From Staphylococcus phage vB_SepM_BE08: 64,000 bases of DNA. Under the pieces are notes generated by a model that did not search any database, had not been told where the DNA came from, and saw only the letters and a program-made list of their open reading frames with translations. Positions 47,799 through 55,431 of this stretch are shown piece by piece; the stretch's first letter is position 1, and every line of letters starts with the position of its first letter. The stretch lies in sequence record MT596505.1, one strand, 5' to 3'. The position numbers and the translations under genes are program-made.

Positions 47799-48895
47799 TT
47801 ACTTGTGTACAATATAATTTATTTATTATATTGTATCTATTGTCATTTAAACAATAGCTATATATCTCTATATAGGACAGACTATATCATATATCATTTC
47901 TGTGGTAGGTTTATTGTTTATTTACTGTTTCTAAATTTATATCCTTTATACTCTACAAAGTCATCTGTTTTTCTTAATTTATCTCTCAATGTCTTATGAT
48001 TATTCATGTTGAGTAGTTTCATCACCTTATTCATACTATACTTAGTATACAATAGATTACCGTCTAAGTCAAATACATCAATTTTCATATTTTTACTTCT
48101 TTTAGACTCTTTATTTACATACTCCCACTTATAACCTTTATGTGATTTATGTCTTCCAGAAATTACTTGACTTATTTTTGATGGGCTAAAATACCCACCA
48201 GTTTCTCTTTGTGCTTGAGTGGGTGAATCCCACACCTTAACAATATTACCTTCCATATCTTTTTGATATACTGCTTTATTAGATACCTTTTTAAGTTGTT
48301 CCCTAGCACTATACGTATTTTGTCTACCTTGTTTAGCAGAGTGTAAGGTATTGCCCCTATAATCTACCCATTCTAGGTTGTTTACGTGGTTATTCAATCT
48401 ATTATTATCGATGTGGTTAACAACATTTAGATTAGGATTATTGTTAGGTATAAAAAGCTTTGCTACTAATCTATGCACTAATATGTTACCCTCAGTAACT
48501 GTAACTTGTTTGTACCCTGAATTAATAATCCATGGTTTTAATTCATGCTTAGTAATTTTATTTATTACTCTACCTGTATTACTTACTTTATATTTATCAT
48601 CATAATCTTTCCAAACTTCTTTCATATACTCTTCCTTACTATTCCCTACCACAGAAATAATATCCTTGCTTTCGTGGGTGTGTATTGGTTGTGCTACCTC
48701 AACACCTAGTCGTTGAGCCTTCCCCATACTTCCATACACTTTCAGGGGCTTGGTTGCGGATTCTCTTTATTCTTAACCTTTTTACTGTACCAAACACATT
48801 ACTGTTTGCCCTTATATATGTTTCCATTATAAGTTAGTAGTTAAGACCTAACAAGTTTCTCCCCGCAGTTAACAAAGTTTTACAACCCCAATTTA
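47799..48895 (-). other. group I-type intron interrupting DNA polymerase between ...TGRLASSNP and NLQNI...
   Basis: exon 1 stops right after SSNP, exon 2 resumes with NLQNI; GC-rich structured segments 48740-48895; encodes HNH endonuclease. Confidence 0.65.
47918..48739 (-). CDS. HNH homing endonuclease (VNHIDNNRLNNHVNNLEW; repeated NUMOD-like basic modules)
   Basis: HNH motif by inspection, intron-encoded. Confidence 0.7.
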   Translation of the reverse strand: MYGSMGKAQRLGVEVAQPIHTHESKDIISVVGNSKEEYMKEVWKDYDDKYKVSNTGRVINKITKHELKPWIINSGYKQVTVTEGNILVHRLVAKLFIPNNNPNLNVVNHIDNNRLNNHVNNLEWVDYRGNTLHSAKQGRQNTYSAREQLKKVSNKAVYQKDMEGNIVKVWDSPTQAQRETGGYFSPSKISQVISGRHKSHKGYKWEYVNKESKRSKNMKIDVFDLDGNLLYTKYSMNKVMKLLNMNNHKTLRDKLRKTDDFVEYKGYKFRNSK

Positions 48896-51124
48896 AGGGT
48901 TACTACTGGCTAATCTTCCTGTACTTGTAGTTGTTGATGAGAAACTACCATGTAGTGTTTGTGTGTTTTTATTAACCATTCTAGGAAGCTTATGAGTAAA
49001 TGAGTTTCGTTTTGTTCGTATAGAGGCGTAGTATAATAAGTCTTCTATTAGTTCTTTGTTATCTTCTGTTACTTCTAAATCAGATAATATATATCCTAGA
49101 GCTTTAGTATCTGTTTTATAGTCTTCCCAACTAATATCTTGCTCTTTCTTTTTCTCAAAAGAGGTAGCTTTAACGTAGTTCTGGTCATAAGGTAATTCAA
49201 AACCTAATATTTTATACAATAGTTCACTTTTATGGTCTCCTGACCCTATATTAAATTTCCACCCATCATCTTTATACTTATTTCTGTACTTCTCTATTTC
49301 TGGGTCTCTTTCTTTTTTAGGTTTACTAAACTCTTCTAAACCTAGTTCATATAAGTTATATTTTTCTTCTTCAAATTCTTTTACCGCCCAATGTTCTCTT
49401 ATTTTATTTTCAATTTTAGTTAATTCTAATTCATAGGCTTTGTCATTCTTTTCCATGTAATCTAAATCAGCATATAGACCATTACTCTCTATTCTTGCTA
49501 GGGTTCTATCTAACCTTGGATAATCTTGTTGCCATAACTTTATTGCTTTAGGTCGTTGTTGGTCTTTTAATTTTTCTAGTATATTAGAATAAATTCTACG
49601 ACATACATCAACGTCACCACTAGCATAAGGGTGCATTAGTTCTAAAGGAATCCAATCATAATTAAACTTACCACCATCAACTTCATTATATACATCTGTA
49701 TGTTTTTTAAACCTATTAATTAATTCTAAAGCTGTTTTAAGTGTATATTCTTTACCTTCATCACTTAAAGACATATACTCATCCGAAAGCTTAGCTACCT
49801 CTTCAAACTCTGAATCACCCATTAACATTGTTTTTGTTAATCGTTCTGGGTGTAAACCTAATTGAATATATTGCTTATCAGTACTATTCATTTCTGTTTT
49901 TTGCTCATATTTATCAAGCTCTACTTCTTTATCCACACTAATGTTTTCAGATAACCAATTTTTATATTCTGTTGCTTTAATATTATGTTCTTTTTTTGCA
50001 ATACTCTTATTATCTTTAATAATAGTAGACATTTTTTCTGACAAGAATTTAAGTAATTTTCTACTAAACCATTTTTTAAATTCTTCTAACGGTGTGTCAT
50101 ACCCACCCATATCTGTAACCTCATATGCTAAGTCAGACAGGCGTTTAGAATCTGTGGTTTCTTGTGTTACAGCTAAATACCAGCCTACAAGTGTGTCTTG
50201 ATTATTTTCAAATGTGTTAAATCCTAGTGTACTCATTAGGAATTTTATATCATATTTAATATTATGACCTACTTTTATATCCTCTTTATCAGCTAACCAT
50301 TCTCTTAAGTAACTTAGTATCTCATCAATATCTTTTTGTCCGTTTTTCCAATTAAAATCAGATTTATAAATAGGTATTGTGACACCTTGTCCGTTTTTCC
50401 AACTTAAAGATACTACTAAAACTTTACTTCCTGCTCTATCTGGTTTTAGTGAATTAGTCTCTGTATCCCAAGCTGTTATATCTATACCATCATTATTATC
50501 TTTTTTTACTTCTTTAGTAAAAATCTCTCTTACTCTTTCAATATCTGTTACAAGTTCATATGACACTTTTTTAGGTTTAAAGGCTTCTTCTCCATTTTTT
50601 ACAAATTTACCTAATAAATTAAGGTCTGTAACTACATGACGTTCAGCATTTTTATTAACATTAGTGTATTCAATACTATAAGTAGGTAATACCCAAACAC
50701 CTTTACTTGTATTTTCAGTACTTAATGTTATTTTGTGAGGTACACCTCTTACTGAACCTAATTTTGTAACGTTTAGTAAAAATTTAATACCTAGTTTACC
50801 TAAAGGAACAATAATATCATAATTATTATCAATAATTCGTTTAGTTAATTCTGAGTAATAAGGTTTAACTTCTGTTTGCTTTACATCTTGGTATTTAACA
50901 ATCTTACCGTAATTATTTGTTACAGGTGTTGGTATAGCCTTATACACAAAATCAATATCATAATCTTTTCTAGAATTATCTCTTACTAAACCTGAACATC
51001 TCTCTAATAACATTTTTAAAGTTTTACCATTTTGAGTATTAAAAAGATTTAATCTTGTTTTATTATCATCTGTAACTTTAAAATGTTCTTCTCTTATGTG
51101 GTCGTATAAAATTAAAGCTTTCAT
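48896..51124 (-). CDS. DNA polymerase (family A) exon 1: 3'-5' exonuclease (AWDTETN, VGHNIKYD, YASGDVD) and N-terminal pol domain; start re-assigned to MKALILYD with SD AAGGAG
   Basis: Exo I-III motifs; ends TGRLASSNP. Confidence 0.8.
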
Positions 51125-51204
51125 ATTTATCTTCTCCTTACACTTGTTTAAATATATGATACCATAGAATATCTTTAATGTCAATAAAAAAAGAGACAAA
51201 TTTT

Positions 51205-52238: not shown

Positions 52239-52303
52239 AAAAAAACCTCACTTCTTTGTATAAATTAATTATACCATAAAAGTGAGATTTATCAAAATTA
52301 AAT

Positions 52304-52627
52304 TTAAATATTTTCTAAATCTTTAAATTTCATAGGGTTTACATCGTCACCTTCTAAAGTAACTTTAAGTTCTCCGTTTTTAAAACAAAGTAACAAAGGA
52401 GTACTCATAACATTAAATTTCTCGATAGCTAACTCTCTATCCACATCTTCATCATCTAAATTTAATGAGAAAATAGGTTTTGTAATATCTCCAGTATTTT
52501 CAAATTCAGGTAAGATATTTTTTAAAATCTCACATTTAGCACATCCGTCTTGTGAAATTAATACAATAGCGTCATCATTGTATGAGATTTTTGTATTTAA
52601 GTCTACTAAGCTTTCTAATTTTTCCAT
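52304..52627 (-). CDS. glutaredoxin/thioredoxin-like protein (CAKC active site)
   Basis: CxxC near N-terminus, ~107 aa. Confidence 0.65.
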   Translation of the reverse strand: MEKLESLVDLNTKISYNDDAIVLISQDGCAKCEILKNILPEFENTGDITKPIFSLNLDDEDVDRELAIEKFNVMSTPLLLCFKNGELKVTLEGDDVNPMKFKDLENI

Positions 52628-54033
52628 ATTTATTCTTCATCCGTTGTCAAAAACTTATAAAACTTTATAAATCTTATTCCTTTTTCAATGTACCCTCTTT
52701 TGAGTATTTCATATACATAGATTACTTCTTATTACTCTACTTGAGTTTGTATGATACTCCAAAGGCTTAAATTCCCGTACAACGAACGGTACATATATTT
52801 AGTATCTTGTTTTTGATATTCTAAATATTGTAGTTAGCTAAATTAATACTTGCATTGAGGTCTCTATCAAGACTAAAACCACATTCACAGTTAAATATTC
52901 TATCTGATAGTTTTAGGTTTTGATTAATAGTTCCACAGTTAGAACAAGTTTTACTAGAAGGATAAAATCTGTCTGCTAGTATAACTTCAATACCCTTTCT
53001 TTTACACTTATACTCTAACTGTCTTCTAAACTCGTAGAAACCTTGTTTTTGTATTGCTTTAGCTAAATGCCTATTCTTCATCATACCACTTACATTTAAA
53101 TCTTCTATAACAATTCTTCTAGGTTTGGTTTTCACGATAGAAGTTGTTGTTTGATGTAAATGGTTTTTACGAATGTTAGACAATCTTCGTTGTAGGAGTT
53201 TAATTTGTTTTTCAAGTTTTATAATATTGCAAGTTTTGACAAACTTTCCTCCTTCTTTATTTTTTTGATATTTACGAGATACCTTACGTTGCAATCTACG
53301 TAATCGTTTTTCTAGTTTTTTAACTTTTACTGTTTTATTTATGTTTCCATAAATAGTTCCATCAGAACATATTACTAATTCTTTTATTCCTAAATCAATA
53401 CCTAGTGATTCATCAGTTAGTTCTTCGTAGATGTTTTCTTCTTCAATAGAAACACTTATATACCAATATTTACCATCAAAAGTAATTCTAGGATTATAAT
53501 ACTTAGTATTCGTTGGTAGTTGTTCTGATGTTTTAACCCAACCTATTCTTTGTAACAATACTAAATTTTCTTTTACTCTTAATCTATGTGTATCATTATA
53601 AAAACTAGGTTTTGTTTTCTTCTTATATTTAAACTTAGGAAATTTAGCTTGTCCTTTAAAGAAACGCTTATAAGAAATACAAGCATCTTTAACTGCTTGT
53701 TTAGGAATATTGTTACTAACTTCTTTTAGCCATTTATACTCTTCTGTTTTCTTTAACTGAGTAATTTCTTTACGTAAAACAGAATCTTGTATAAACTTTT
53801 TTCCTTGTTTATAATTTTCTTGTTGTTTTGCTAAAGTCCAGTTGTATATAAATCTTGCTGTTCCTGCTGATTTATATAATTGTAGCTCTTGTTGTTTAGT
53901 AGGTCTAAGCCTAACTTTTTTAGTTATCATTATTTAGCCCACCTTAAGATATGTTATCACCTCTACAAGTATTATAACATATCTTAGGTAAAAATGCAAC
54001 TTAATTTATAAAAAAGTTATAAATTTATATTAA
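52628..54033 (-). mobile_element. IS200/IS605-family (IS1341-type) element carrying tnpB only; left-end-like 13-bp inverted-repeat hairpin at 53944-53987; long 3' noncoding tail
   Basis: unusually long flanking gaps (193 and 103 nt) around tnpB; subterminal hairpin; boundaries not determinable. Confidence 0.4.
52821..53930 (-). CDS. tnpB: TnpB (OrfB) RuvC-like RNA-guided nuclease: RuvC-I IDLGIKE, RuvC-II IVIEDLN, Zn finger CSNCG...CECG, RuvC-III DRDLNASINLA
   Basis: all catalytic motifs intact; N-terminal LRPTKQQELQL motif. Confidence 0.8.
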   Translation of the reverse strand: MITKKVRLRPTKQQELQLYKSAGTARFIYNWTLAKQQENYKQGKKFIQDSVLRKEITQLKKTEEYKWLKEVSNNIPKQAVKDACISYKRFFKGQAKFPKFKYKKKTKPSFYNDTHRLRVKENLVLLQRIGWVKTSEQLPTNTKYYNPRITFDGKYWYISVSIEEENIYEELTDESLGIDLGIKELVICSDGTIYGNINKTVKVKKLEKRLRRLQRKVSRKYQKNKEGGKFVKTCNIIKLEKQIKLLQRRLSNIRKNHLHQTTTSIVKTKPRRIVIEDLNVSGMMKNRHLAKAIQKQGFYEFRRQLEYKCKRKGIEVILADRFYPSSKTCSNCGTINQNLKLSDRIFNCECGFSLDRDLNASINLANYNI

Positions 54034-54345
54034 TTATCTTTCATCCTTTTCTAATAAATTAATTACTTCTTCAAAGCTATTTACATTATAAACTATTGGA
54101 TGTTCTAATCCTTGTGACTTATCTATAACTGTGAGTGCACTGTTATTATACCCTAAAATATAATTAGTACTCTTATAACTAAATTCTAATTGAAAAGAAG
54201 TAGACTCTGAATCAGGTCTAGTATCTTCTTTCTGATTAAGTATTTTAATAGGGTCGTATAAGTCTTCTACATATTTGAAATCATCATACTTTTTAAACAA
54301 AGTCTCTGCTTTATTCATAAGTACTAATGCTTCTTTTCTATCCAT
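54034..54345 (-). CDS. hypothetical protein
   Basis: ORF. Confidence 0.5.
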   Translation of the reverse strand: MDRKEALVLMNKAETLFKKYDDFKYVEDLYDPIKILNQKEDTRPDSESTSFQLEFSYKSTNYILGYNNSALTVIDKSQGLEHPIVYNVNSFEEVINLLEKDER

Positions 54346-54384
54346 AATAACTTTCCTTTCTTATGTTATACTATAAAAAGGTTA

Positions 54385-55431
54385 TCATAAAAATTTATCT
54401 ACTAAATCACTTTCATTATCTTCGATATTAAAATCATCATCTTTAATATCTTTAATATTAGTAGATTTTTCATAATCTGCTTTCCCACTAAAGAAATCTA
54501 CGTGTCTCATTCTACCTACATCAATTTGATTATTAACAATAGCATTAAAAGGTTCTGGATGAAAATAATCTTCTTTACCTAAATTAGATAAGGCTCTATT
54601 AAAATTATATTCTACATATCTAATTACATCTTCAGTTAATCCTAAGTCATCATATAACATATGTGTATATGATACTTCATTATCATATAATATGTCAAGT
54701 AATTTATACATTAATTTATCAGCTTTTTCTTTTTCCGTATCTGTTAATTGTTCATAATCATATTGTGCTGTCAACCCTACTGCTGAACCATGATATGATT
54801 CATCTTGAGTTATTTTAAATATAACAGCTCCTGATTGTGTCATACGACCTTGACCTGCTAAAAGTAAAGGGTAATAGAACCCGGAGTAGAATAAGGCACT
54901 CTCTAAAAACGCACTGGCAACTTTTGCCATATATCTATCAAAAGTAGTAGGCTCTGGGTTTAGTAACTTTTTGTAAAAATAACCAATAAATTGAGCTTTT
55001 TTAATTAAGTGGCTTTCTTCTCTTACCCACTCATCTAATAAATAATTAGTTTCTTTATTATTTAAAATAGTTGTAAATATATGAGAGTATGAACGTTCAT
55101 GTACAAACTCCATCATACCCATATATCCAAAAACAGCTTTATAATGTCTTCTAGGTTCTTGATATGAAATAAGGTTCATACCTTCTCCGCCTTGTTTAGC
55201 ATCTAAACCAGTTAACCCTGCTAAAACTTTTTTATAAGTTTCTCTCTCAATGTCAGAGAGTTCATTCCAAGAATTTAAATCCCTGGAAATATCGAACTCT
55301 TCAGGAAACCAGATTTGATTAACACCTTGGTTCCAATAAATCTCAGACATACCGTCTGATTGTTTATTCCAATTAATTGGTTCTAATTTATCTTCTTTAT
55401 TATTTAATTCTACTGCTTTTCTTAGTGACAT
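54385..55431 (-). CDS. nrdF: ribonucleotide reductase class Ib beta subunit; start re-assigned to MSLRKAV with SD AAGGAAGG
   Basis: di-iron R2 fold motifs; synteny nrdI-nrdE-nrdF. Confidence 0.8.
   Translation of the reverse strand: MSLRKAVELNNKEDKLEPINWNKQSDGMSEIYWNQGVNQIWFPEEFDISRDLNSWNELSDIERETYKKVLAGLTGLDAKQGGEGMNLISYQEPRRHYKAVFGYMGMMEFVHERSYSHIFTTILNNKETNYLLDEWVREESHLIKKAQFIGYFYKKLLNPEPTTFDRYMAKVASAFLESALFYSGFYYPLLLAGQGRMTQSGAVIFKITQDESYHGSAVGLTAQYDYEQLTDTEKEKADKLMYKLLDILYDNEVSYTHMLYDDLGLTEDVIRYVEYNFNRALSNLGKEDYFHPEPFNAIVNNQIDVGRMRHVDFFSGKADYEKSTNIKDIKDDDFNIEDNESDLVDKFL

What the first reader, a model, noticed from the sequence alone, without database searches (positions are those of the whole stretch)
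52628..54033. Intact TnpB (IS605-type, no TnpA) inside the nrd-thioredoxin cluster with hairpin and long 3' tail (omega-RNA candidate)
The tnpB ORF keeps RuvC-I/II/III and the zinc finger intact. It is flanked by atypically long noncoding gaps: 103 nt upstream with a 13-bp inverted repeat (ttaagatatgttat/ataacatatctta), and 193 nt downstream. Other gene junctions here are 0-60 nt. TnpB proteins are RNA-guided nucleases whose omega-RNA is encoded at the 3' end of tnpB and the right end of the element. The 52628-52900 minus-strand segment is therefore a candidate omega-RNA whose guide would lie just upstream of the thioredoxin gene.
Basis: partly seen in the sequence, partly recalled or inferred. 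Interest (0 to 1): 0.6.

Follow-up and report, generated by a model that had tools for sequence, protein, structure and literature searches.

The report
RNA-guided nuclease transposon inside a phage
A virulent Staphylococcus phage carries a 1.4-kb stripped-down transposon that has lost its transposase but keeps an intact RNA-guided DNA cutter (TnpB) and its guide RNA. The guide matches the same spot in sister phages that lack the insert, so it could act as a natural gene drive between co-infecting phages.

Summary
The window is a phiIBB-SEP1/Twillingate-type Sepunavirus. A 1404-bp insert (52641-54044, minus strand) lies between a 103-aa ORF and the thioredoxin-like gene. It is present in 4 phages and missing in 9 near-identical ones.

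It encodes an intact 369-aa TnpB (D179/E276/D357, zinc finger; best solved relative ISFba1 TnpB, PDB 8IAZ, E 2e-85). The 3' tail is an omega/reRNA: Rfam RAGATH-18 at 52677-52765 scores 61 bits, and 8 of 22 pairs show compensatory changes. The predicted 20-nt guide (52640-52621) covers the thioredoxin start codon. It matches all nine empty-site phages exactly, next to AAAGG.

The family call needs correcting. This is IS607-type (serine-recombinase TnpA, GG target, right end ...GACAACGG), not IS605. A sibling copy in phage VL10 still has the full TnpA. The 13-bp inverted repeat is real and conserved, but it looks like a tnpA promoter/start-codon hairpin rather than an IS605 end.

TnpB is under purifying selection (dN/dS 0.10-0.22) in copies that lost tnpA independently. 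The best reading is an RNA-guided homing or exclusion cassette acting on co-infecting phages. That function is inferred, not shown. This is a new member of a known kind. One anomaly at the left junction remains unexplained.

The parts
52641..54044 (-). Whole inserted element: 1404 bp, an IS607-family derivative without tnpA. The register is ambiguous by 7 nt because GGATGAA occurs at both junctions.
   Evidence: Absent from 10 Sepunavirus records (9 phages) that are about 99% identical on both sides. The junctions were aligned. The right end was defined by seven sibling copies that all end ...TTTTTGACAACGG.
54045..54049 (-). Left-flank AAAGG: the GG crossover dinucleotide and the presumed TAM. 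It is also the Shine-Dalgarno-like motif of the thioredoxin-like gene in empty-site phages.
   Evidence: Seven independent phage insertion sites have AAAGG, GGAGG, AGAGG, AAAGG, AGAGG, GGAGG and TGAGG at this position. Published TAMs for this family are AGGAG or GAGGG (PMC11061315).
53931..54044 (-). Left end. It holds a 5-nt copy of the right flank (ATGAA, 54040-54044) and the TTTATAA-type repeats also found in the right end. It also holds the promoter (-35 TTGCAT 53994-53999, -10 TATAAT 53971-53976), the former tnpA ribosome-binding site GAGGTG (53958-53963) and the tnpB SD.
   Evidence: Left-end alignment A3. Direct repeat between the left and right ends, D2/D7. A promoter is annotated at the equivalent place in KF021268. 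The sequence was read.
53945..53986 (-). Inverted repeat / hairpin: 13-nt arms at 53974-53986 and 53945-53957 with a 16-nt loop. The 5' arm overlaps the -10 box.
   Evidence: pair I19. Predicted folding energy is -12.7 kcal/mol. The same hairpin, with different sequence, is predicted in the five other copies folded (-11 to -14 kcal/mol), where the 3' arm covers the tnpA ATG.
52821..53930 (-). tnpB: 369 aa, an RNA-guided endonuclease with an intact RuvC triad D179/E276/D357 and zinc finger.
   Evidence: (8IAZ, E 2e-85).
52641..52808 (-). Omega/reRNA scaffold. It comprises a 5' stem-loop (52766-52808), the RAGATH-18 core (52677-52765) and a 3' flank ending ...GACAACGG (52641-52676).
   Evidence: Rfam RF03064 at 61 bits against a cut-off of 44.9. 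A 12-sequence alignment gives 22 pairs, 8 with compensatory changes. 95% of cells are paired, against 33-57% when partners are slid. Conservation starts 12 nt after the stop codon. In ISFba1 the reRNA starts 13 nt downstream of the tnpB gene.
52621..52640 (-). Predicted 20-nt guide, ATGAAGAATAAATATGGAAA. It is flank DNA that covers the spacer and start codon (52625-52627) of the thioredoxin-like gene.
   Evidence: It is the sequence immediately 3' of the conserved right end. An identical sequence follows AAAGG in all 10 empty-site records. It is the only match with 3 or fewer mismatches in the window. The 20-nt length is taken from ISFba1.

Best explanation
This is a transposition-disabled IS607-family element that survives in virulent staphylococcal phages as a TnpB plus guide-RNA cassette.

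Proposed mechanism. The element's own sigma-70-type promoter in the left end drives tnpB and the 3' tail early in infection. TnpB binds the RAGATH-18-type scaffold (52641-52808). The 20 nt of flanking sequence that follow it (52640-52621) serve as the guide. When a sibling phage without the insert infects the same cell, its orf103/thioredoxin junction reads AAAGG + ATGAAGAATAAATATGGAAA, that is, TAM plus a perfect target. It would be cut about 16-22 nt from the TAM, by analogy with ISFba1. The break is then either repaired from the insert-bearing genome, which copies the element in (homing), or it removes the competitor (exclusion).

The carrier is protected at both junctions. At the right junction the TAM position reads AACGG. 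At the left junction the target is interrupted, with mismatches at guide positions 6, 7, 12 and 15-18.

Shown here: the anatomy, the family, the empty site, the exact guide/target match, the RNA covariation and purifying selection. Inferred: expression, the TAM of this clade, cleavage and homing.
For: - Precise presence/absence polymorphism in about 99% identical genomes: 5 records (4 phages) occupied, 10 records (9 phages) empty. All empty alleles keep AAAGG plus the 20-nt target at 100% identity.
- TnpB is intact and 2e-85 to ISFba1 TnpB (8IAZ), an experimentally proven RAGATH-18-guided DNase.
- The RNA scaffold matches Rfam above threshold in the window and in five sibling loci. It shows compensatory changes.
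- dN/dS is 0.10-0.22 over all 21 pairs of seven phage copies. tnpA has been lost in different ways: fully deleted here, a 39-aa stub in Twort, an 86-aa MerR stub in phiSA12/PSU6, and left end plus tnpA gone in Romulus. Only 1 Staphylococcus phage record keeps the cognate full TnpA.
- The RNA region is 84-90% identical between copies although dS is 0.4-0.8.
- The native left-end terminus seen in Twort, RSM-J51Sa, VL10 and bacteria is missing here. TnpA supplied in trans is therefore unlikely to move this copy.
- Sepunavirus genomes are mosaics, so co-infection recombination does occur.
- TnpB-driven homing has been shown for an IS607-family element (PMC10690162).
Against: - No expression or cleavage data exist for this element.
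- The flank motif AAAGG is neither of the published TAMs (AGGAG, GAGGG). In ISFba1 every TAM position was essential. Two of four TAM-contact residues differ here (K80->N74, N122->D113; my reading of the alignment). The TAM of this clade is therefore unknown.
- The element is the minority allele at every site examined (4 of 13 phages here; 1 of about 50 records, about 7 of about 235, and about 9 of about 230 elsewhere). That does not look like an efficient drive.
- The SNP pattern around the insert does not show a clean co-conversion tract.
- Minimum-free-energy folding of the single RNA sequence is not better than shuffles (z = -0.9).
Confidence: 0.62

Rival explanations
1. Inert relic. A dead IS607 copy is carried passively by the phage, and TnpB and its RNA no longer do anything.
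For: tnpA and the native left-end terminus are gone. The insert is the minority allele. The flank motif is not a published TAM.
Against: dN/dS is 0.10-0.22 with no frameshift or stop in seven copies that have diverged to dS 0.4-0.8. The catalytic triad and zinc finger are kept. The RNA helices keep pairing through compensatory changes. The RNA region is 84-90% identical where neutral sites would be about 60%.
Confidence: 0.13
2. Non-autonomous transposon. The copy persists because a full-length relative (VL10-type TnpA) mobilises it in trans. TnpB only performs the ordinary restorative homing after excision.
For: A cognate full TnpA exists in the lineage. The same element family sits at 7 or more different sites in five Twortvirinae lineages. 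TTTATAA-type repeats are kept at both ends.
Against: Only one Staphylococcus phage record has the cognate TnpA, and it is in a different genus. The first ~8 nt of the native left end are replaced here, and the outer left end varies by 8-45 nt between copies. The left junctions do not look like clean serine-recombinase products.
Confidence: 0.12
3. Domesticated regulator. TnpB-RNA binds its own locus or the thioredoxin-like mRNA or start region, as TldR-type proteins do, to tune expression of the nrd/thioredoxin cluster.
For: The guide covers the start codon of the thioredoxin-like gene. The left junction keeps AAAGG plus a partial match to the guide, 12 of 20 positions. The insert separates that gene from its former upstream partner, so its expression must have changed.
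Against: The RuvC triad is intact, whereas TldR proteins are nuclease-dead (established knowledge; the TldR papers appear in the listing). The guide is different at every insertion site and is always just the local flank. Nine sibling phages do without it.
Confidence: 0.06
4. This is an IS200/IS605 (IS1341-type) element whose ends are the hairpins recognised by a Y1 HUH TnpA.
For: The Pfam and NCBIfam model names contain 'IS605' / 'IS200'. A perfect 13-bp inverted repeat lies upstream.
Against: The sibling TnpA is a serine recombinase. The target and right end are GG, not an AT-rich penta-nucleotide. The NCBIfam IS200_TnpB score of 264 is below its cut-off of 425. The RNA is RAGATH-18, which is reported only with IS607 TnpB. 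The hairpin sits over the promoter and tnpA start, not at an element tip.
Confidence: 0.02

Closest known systems
ISFba1 TnpB with RAGATH-18-derived reRNA (Ren et al. 2024, Cell Res, PMC11061315; PDB 8IAZ)
   Same: Same protein family (E 2e-85, aligned over residues 5-365, catalytic D/E/D aligned). Same RNA core (Rfam RF03064). The RNA lies entirely downstream of the coding sequence and starts about 12-13 nt after the stop. The guide is the flank after the right end.
   Different: The protein is 369 aa against 387 aa. The 3' flank of the scaffold is 36 nt here against 64 nt, and the RAGATH-18 terminal loop is longer (89 against 73 nt). The flank motif is RAGG-type (AAAGG) rather than AGGAG. 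Two TAM-contact residues differ. The element resides in a virulent phage and has no tnpA.
CboIStron / IS607 TnpAS-TnpB homing system (Zedaveinyte et al., PMC10690162)
   Same: Serine-recombinase family. Strict GG target. Scarless donor joint. The TnpB guide matches the empty site, so a double-strand break restores the element.
   Different: No group I intron was detected here. There is no TnpA, so there is no excision to repair. The only available target is an empty allele in another genome, which makes this non-restorative homing. The left junction carries a short copy of the right flank.
Free-standing homing endonuclease genes of T-even phages (SegF, SegB, Mob; reviewed in PMC13565253)
   Same: A nuclease gene inserted between conserved phage genes, polymorphic among close relatives, and expected to cut the allele that lacks it during co-infection.
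   Different: Recognition here would be by a 20-nt RNA guide plus TAM instead of protein-DNA contacts. Self and non-self are distinguished by the presence of the insert itself.
ISDra2 TnpB (IS200/IS605; PDB 8BF8, 8H1J)
   Same: Same fold and catalytic mechanism (E 5e-44). The right-end-derived guide RNA follows the same logic.
   Different: ISDra2 has a different transposase (Y1 HUH), ssDNA hairpin ends, an AT-rich TAM (TTGAT), and an omega RNA that overlaps the tnpB coding sequence.

Membership tests
IS607-family TnpB with RAGATH-18 reRNA | TnpB with RuvC D-E-D triad and C-terminal zinc finger | tested here: met
   D179/E276/D357 and CxxC...CxC. Aligned to ISFba1 D194/E290/D371. NCBIfam guided_TnpB scores 328 bits against a cut-off of 100. 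The narrower NCBIfam IS607_TnpB model scores 191, below its 350 cut-off.
IS607-family TnpB with RAGATH-18 reRNA | RAGATH-18 RNA directly downstream of tnpB on the same strand, not overlapping the coding sequence | tested here: met
   RF03064 scores 61 bits against 44.9 at 52677-52765 (-), which is 55 nt after the stop. Covariation supports the structure.
IS607-family TnpB with RAGATH-18 reRNA | Partner transposase is a serine recombinase with an N-terminal MerR-like HTH | tested here: met
   It is absent from this copy. The sibling copy in VL10 (84% nt identity in tnpB) has a 204-aa MerR + Resolvase protein that matches NCBIfam transpos_IS607 at 218 bits. Stubs remain in Twort and phiSA12.
IS607-family TnpB with RAGATH-18 reRNA | Element ends in GG and is inserted 3' of a GG | tested here: met
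   The right end is ...GACAACGG in 7 phage copies and ...GGCAACGG in most of the bacterial relatives examined, which all end in ...CGG. The left flank ends in GG at 7 sites.
IS607-family TnpB with RAGATH-18 reRNA | No target-site duplication beyond the core dinucleotide | tested here: not met
   GG+ATGAA here, GG+ATTGAAGCA in VL10 and GG+TGTATATTTAA in phiSA12 occur at both junctions, but only once in the empty alleles. Four other sites have no such copy.
IS607-family TnpB with RAGATH-18 reRNA | TAM 5'-AGGAG or 5'-GAGGG next to the target | tested here: inconclusive
   The flank is AAAGG. The consensus of 7 sites is RAGG. The TAM has not been measured for this clade.
IS607-family TnpB with RAGATH-18 reRNA | RNA-guided dsDNA cleavage | not testable with these tools
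   This needs biochemistry or an interference assay.
IS200/IS605 (IS1341 group) | Y1 HUH TnpA in autonomous relatives; subterminal hairpins at both ends; insertion 3' of an AT-rich tetra- or penta-nucleotide | tested here: not met
   The autonomous relative has a serine recombinase. The target is GG. The only strong hairpin is over the promoter and tnpA start. NCBIfam IS200_TnpB scores 264, below its 425 cut-off.
IStron | Group I intron fused to the IS, inserted within a gene | tested here: not met
   No intron model is above threshold in the window. The insert is intergenic, and its left end is only 114 nt.
TldR (nuclease-dead TnpB-derived regulators) | Inactivated RuvC site, and a guide directed at a conserved promoter | tested here: not met
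   The triad is intact. The guide equals the local flank and differs at each site.

The most novel reading that the evidence does not exclude
Twortvirinae phages host a lineage of IS607-derived TnpB/guide-RNA cassettes that have given up transposition. They persist as RNA-guided gene drives, or competitor-killing weapons, between co-infecting virulent phages. They always lodge between the Shine-Dalgarno motif and the start codon of a phage gene. In addition, new insertions may not be clean serine-recombinase events. Only the right junction is exact, while the left junction is variable and can carry 5-11 nt of the target. This points to an undescribed insertion or retargeting route.
Probability: 0.35. 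Interest if true: 0.75.

Novelty: new member of a known kind. Interest (0 to 1): 0.5.

Why it matters
IS607 TnpB enzymes guided by RAGATH-18 RNAs are known mostly from gut bacteria and as compact genome editors. Their natural role has been shown as restorative homing after excision within one cell.

Here the same machinery sits in strictly lytic, therapeutically used staphylococcal phages. It has no transposase. Near-identical occupied and empty phages were often isolated in the same studies (110 versus 80A/80B; BE25 versus BE04/BE05; Twillingate versus Quidividi/Terranova).

That makes "non-restorative homing between co-infecting phages" directly testable with existing isolates. The idea appears in a 2026 review, and I found no demonstration of it in the paper library searched.

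It also bears on phage-cocktail design, because one phage might cut or convert another. And it offers a small (369 aa) TnpB with a possibly different TAM (RAGG).

Tried and rejected
- **Single-sequence folding.** Folding of the scaffold gave z = -0.9, which is uninformative for this AT-rich RNA. I relied on the covariance model and covariation instead.
- **Promoter scan.** The generic scan did not list the left-end promoter (TTGCAT scores only 3 of 6 against TTGACA) and found fewer sites than in shuffles. The promoter call rests on the sequence, its conservation and the KF021268 annotation.
- **Twort empty site.** None was found, because only Twort itself matches. The Twort left boundary is therefore inferred.
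- **Co-conversion signature.** Phage 110 is SEP1-like around the insert and Terranova-like from 54271 to 55330, but the pattern is mosaic and not diagnostic.
- **Off-targets of the guide.** There are none in the window. The host genome could not be searched.
- **Group I intron test.** Testing the second TnpB lineage found no hit at the gathering threshold.
- **Literature.** Searches for TnpB together with Twortvirinae names or 'Staphylococcus phage' returned nothing relevant. Phage genome papers only list RAGATH-18 as a feature.
- **Rejected ideas.** The IS605 assignment, an IStron, and a TldR-like regulator (see the membership table).
- **Considered but unsupported.** Target choice guided by an omega RNA read across the circle junction.
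Full report
**Identity of the window and check of the observation**

The region is 99.8-99.9% identical to Staphylococcus phages phiIBB-SEP1, Twillingate, BE25 and 110 (Sepunavirus, Twortvirinae, Herelleviridae). All genes here are on the minus strand, in this order: nrdE, nrdF, a 103-aa ORF (54034-54345), the 369-aa ORF (52821-53930), a thioredoxin-like gene (52304-52627), then DNA-binding protein and polymerase genes.

The 369-aa ORF matches Pfam HTH_OrfB_IS605, OrfB_IS605 and Cas12f1-like_TNB and NCBIfam 'RNA-guided endonuclease TnpB' (328 bits). Its best solved relative is 8IAZ (E 2.2e-85, residues 5-365). That entry is ISFba1 TnpB in complex with its reRNA and target (PMC11061315). The catalytic residues D179, E276 and D357 and the CxxC...CxC zinc finger are intact. 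They align with ISFba1 D194/E290/D371.

**It is a discrete insertion with an empty site**

Ten records (nine phages: phiIPLA-C1C, Quidividi, Terranova, BE04, BE05, PG-2021_1, PG-2021_23, 80A, 80B) match both flanks at 98.5-99.6% but lack exactly 1404 bp. In those phages the stop of the 103-aa ORF and the ATG of the thioredoxin-like gene are 2 nt apart.

On the minus strand the three junctions read as follows:
- Empty site: ...GAAAAGG ATGAAGAATAA ATATG...
- Occupied left junction: ...GAAAAGG ATGAA AGATAATTAAT...
- Occupied right junction: ...TTTTTGACAACGG ATGAAGAATAAATATG...

Seven sibling copies in other phages all end ...TTTTTGACAACGG and then diverge. This fixes the right end at 52641 and the element at 52641-54044. 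A 79-nt probe across the empty junction is 100% identical in all ten empty records.

**The family is IS607, not IS605**

Related elements (83-89% nt identity in tnpB) occur in Twort, Kayvirus (phiSA12, S25-3/4, PSU6, PALS_1, St14.GH), Silviavirus (Romulus/Remus, VL10...), Baoshanvirus (RSM-J51Sa) and the PG-2021 phages. Each sits in a different genomic context.

The VL10 copy has a 204-aa gene upstream of, and overlapping, tnpB. That gene carries MerR-HTH plus Resolvase domains and matches NCBIfam 'IS607 family transposase' (218 bits against a cut-off of 110). The other copies have lost tnpA in different ways:
- phiSA12 and PSU6 keep an 86-aa MerR stub.
- Twort keeps a 39-aa stub.
- Romulus has lost the left end and tnpA.
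- The window copy keeps the tnpA promoter and ribosome-binding site but nothing of the gene.

A tblastn search with VL10 TnpA finds only that one full cognate copy among Staphylococcus phages. The GG at the right end and a GG immediately left of every insertion fit the strict GG rule of IS607 serine transposases (PMC10690162; PMC13565253).

**The omega/reRNA**

Rfam RAGATH-18 (RF03064) hits 52677-52765 (-) at 61 bits against a gathering score of 44.9. It is the only family above threshold in the 64-kb window. The same hit is found in the Twort and VL10 elements and in three loci of a second lineage. GenBank record OQ448195 already annotates it.

[quoted passage not shown] They also showed that the full reRNA has four parts: a 5' flank starting 13 nt after the tnpB gene, the RAGATH-18 core, a 3' flank, and then the guide, with 20 nt being optimal. 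Here conservation begins 12 nt after the stop (52808) and runs to 52641.

On a 12-sequence alignment, RNAalifold predicts five helices and 22 pairs. Eight pairs show compensatory changes, for example CCG/CGG to GGA/UCC in the 5' stem-loop and GAGUA/UACUC to GAAUU/AAUUC. 95% of cells are paired, against 33-57% when partners are slid. The covariation score is 0.305 against 0.138 or less, with 0 of 500 shuffles reaching it. Bacterial relatives share the layout and end ...TTTTGGCAACGG. Single-sequence folding is not informative.

**Guide, target and self-protection**

The guide is the 20 nt after the right end, ATGAAGAATAAATATGGAAA (52640-52621). It spans the spacer and ATG of the thioredoxin-like gene. 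In empty phages the same 20 nt follow AAAGG. In the carrier the right junction has AACGG at the TAM position. The left junction has AAAGG followed by ATGAAAGATAATTAATATAA, which mismatches the guide at positions 6, 7, 12 and 15-18. ISFba1 does not tolerate single mismatches in positions 1-13. The guide has no other match with 3 or fewer mismatches in the window.

Left flanks of seven independent sites read AAAGG, GGAGG, AGAGG, AAAGG, AGAGG, GGAGG and TGAGG. This gives an RAGG consensus. It is close to, but not identical with, the measured TAMs AGGAG and GAGGG. By my reading of the alignment, the ISFba1 TAM contacts K83 and N121 are conserved (K77, N112), while K80 and N122 are replaced (N74, D113). 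The TAM of this clade therefore remains to be measured.

All seven phage sites place the element between a Shine-Dalgarno-like RAGG and a start codon 6-12 nt downstream. Most of the bacterial relatives examined show a similar arrangement. This explains why the insert sits exactly at a gene junction.

**Selection**

All 21 pairwise comparisons of seven tnpB copies give dN/dS 0.10-0.22 at dS 0.16-0.79, with no frameshifts. The RNA region stays 84-90% identical. TnpB and its RNA are therefore maintained in lineages that lost tnpA independently. This argues against an inert relic.

The closest relatives outside phages reach only about 70% aa identity. One of them is a tnpA-less copy on a Staphylococcus aureus contig that carries a RepA_N replication gene, which suggests a plasmid. 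The lineage therefore appears to have circulated within Twortvirinae for a long time.

**The inverted repeat**

The hairpin is real (-12.7 kcal/mol). An equivalent hairpin, with different sequence, is predicted in Twort, RSM, VL10, phiSA12 and PG-2021_10 (-11 to -14 kcal/mol). In those copies its 5' arm covers the -10 box and its 3' arm covers the tnpA start codon.

By analogy with IS10/IS50-type protection from outside activation (established knowledge; inference here), only read-through transcripts would contain both arms and occlude tnpA translation. An operator role is also possible. It is not an element terminus.

The ends instead share direct TTTATAA-N-TTATAAA repeats (D2/D7). This is what would be expected of serine-transposase binding sites.

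**Most likely mechanism, and its limits**

The best-supported reading is that this copy can no longer transpose. It has no tnpA, and its native left-end terminus has been replaced. It would then persist because TnpB-RNA cuts the empty allele of co-infecting sibling phages. That leads to copying of the insert or to exclusion of the competitor. This is the 'non-restorative homing' listed conceptually in PMC13565253, and it is functionally analogous to the free-standing homing endonucleases of T-even phages.

Mosaic SNP patterns show that these phages recombine, but they do not prove homing. The insert is the minority allele at all sites examined, so any drive must be weak, costly or recent.

The rival explanations are an inert relic, trans-mobilisation, a regulatory role and the IS605 assignment. 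They are scored separately in the report.

**Unexplained left junction**

IS607 should leave no duplication. Yet three sites repeat the start of the right flank after the left GG: ATGAA here (9 of 11 nt up to the stop codon), ATTGAAGCA in VL10, and TGTATATTTAA in phiSA12/St14.GH-A. The empty alleles carry a single copy.

In these three cases the GG lies inside the upstream ORF, and the copy restores its last codons and stop. Here ...KDEE* becomes ...KDER*. At four sites where the upstream ORF ends before the GG there is no copy.

The outer left end also varies by 8-45 nt, while the right junction is always exact. Two explanations are possible:
- Only the right junction is made at GG, and the left junction is joined illegitimately and then filtered by selection.
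- Target choice favours sites that resemble the left-end terminus.

I could not decide between them.

**Novelty**

The molecular system is known, and both parts are already annotated piecemeal in GenBank ('transposase', 'RAGATH-18'). Four things are new:
- The correct family assignment.
- The occupied/empty polymorphism with an exact guide match in virulent phages.
- Repeated loss of tnpA with retention of TnpB and its RNA.
- The junction anomaly.

I found no paper linking TnpB to these phages.

Noticed in passing
L012 2492-4347 (CIFT_MFB_MRSA32), L013 (DH2), L014 2492-4344 (LSA2308): A second TnpB lineage (annotated as 406 and 408 aa in L012 and L014) carries the same RAGATH-18-type RNA, with right end ...TTAACTTACGG. 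In L012 and L014 about 480 nt of noncoding DNA lies upstream. In L012 it sits between two ORFs that are both annotated as tail lysin, and in L014 between exonuclease and helicase ORFs. L013 (DH2) has no annotation. The arrangement is IStron-like, but there is no Rfam group I intron hit at the gathering threshold.
   Followed up: partly
L015 2493-3105 (phage SA11, portal region): A RAGATH-18-type scaffold (60.6 bits) is present without any TnpB gene. A strong promoter-like TTGACA...TATACT and about 450 nt of structured-looking noncoding DNA precede it, between two ORFs next to the portal gene. It may be an orphan guide RNA or a deleted IStron.
   Followed up: partly
window about 48893-51199 and upstream: The DNA polymerase gene is annotated as joined from two pieces in KF021268, and as 'contains intron encoding a hypothetical conserved gene' in Quidividi. 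The window ORF list shows a 768-aa piece with an odd TTG start. No intron RNA family was above threshold in the window.
   Followed up: no
window 54271-55330 (nrdF region) compared with L001: Phage 110 (insert present) carries Terranova-type SNPs across this 1-kb patch but SEP1-type SNPs on both sides. This is evidence of mosaic recombination among Sepunavirus isolates.
   Followed up: partly
L011 (VL10) tnpB, residue about 329: The only copy that still has a full tnpA has Arg in place of the first zinc-finger Cys of TnpB (SSKTRSNCG against SSKTCSNCG). Transposase and nuclease may be decaying in opposite copies.
   Followed up: no
L086-L089 (S. aureus-associated contigs of 54-63 kb carrying RepA_N): A 371-aa TnpB is 70% identical to the phage protein and is named by NCBI as from Staphylococcus aureus. 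It has no called tnpA gene upstream and sits next to a RepA_N replication gene. This looks like a plasmid-borne, tnpA-less relative in the host genus.
   Followed up: partly
window 52631-52641 and 53072-53082: The exact 11-nt repeat GATGAAGAATA (minus strand) occurs at the right-end/guide junction and again inside tnpB. The internal copy is preceded by GTAT, not RAGG, so it is probably chance.
   Followed up: yes
window 52268-52295 (-): A near-consensus promoter (TTGATA-16-TATAAT with an upstream TG) lies just downstream of the thioredoxin-like gene. No such promoter lies between the element and that gene. In insert-bearing phages the thioredoxin-like gene must therefore be transcribed through tnpB and the guide RNA.
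   Followed up: no
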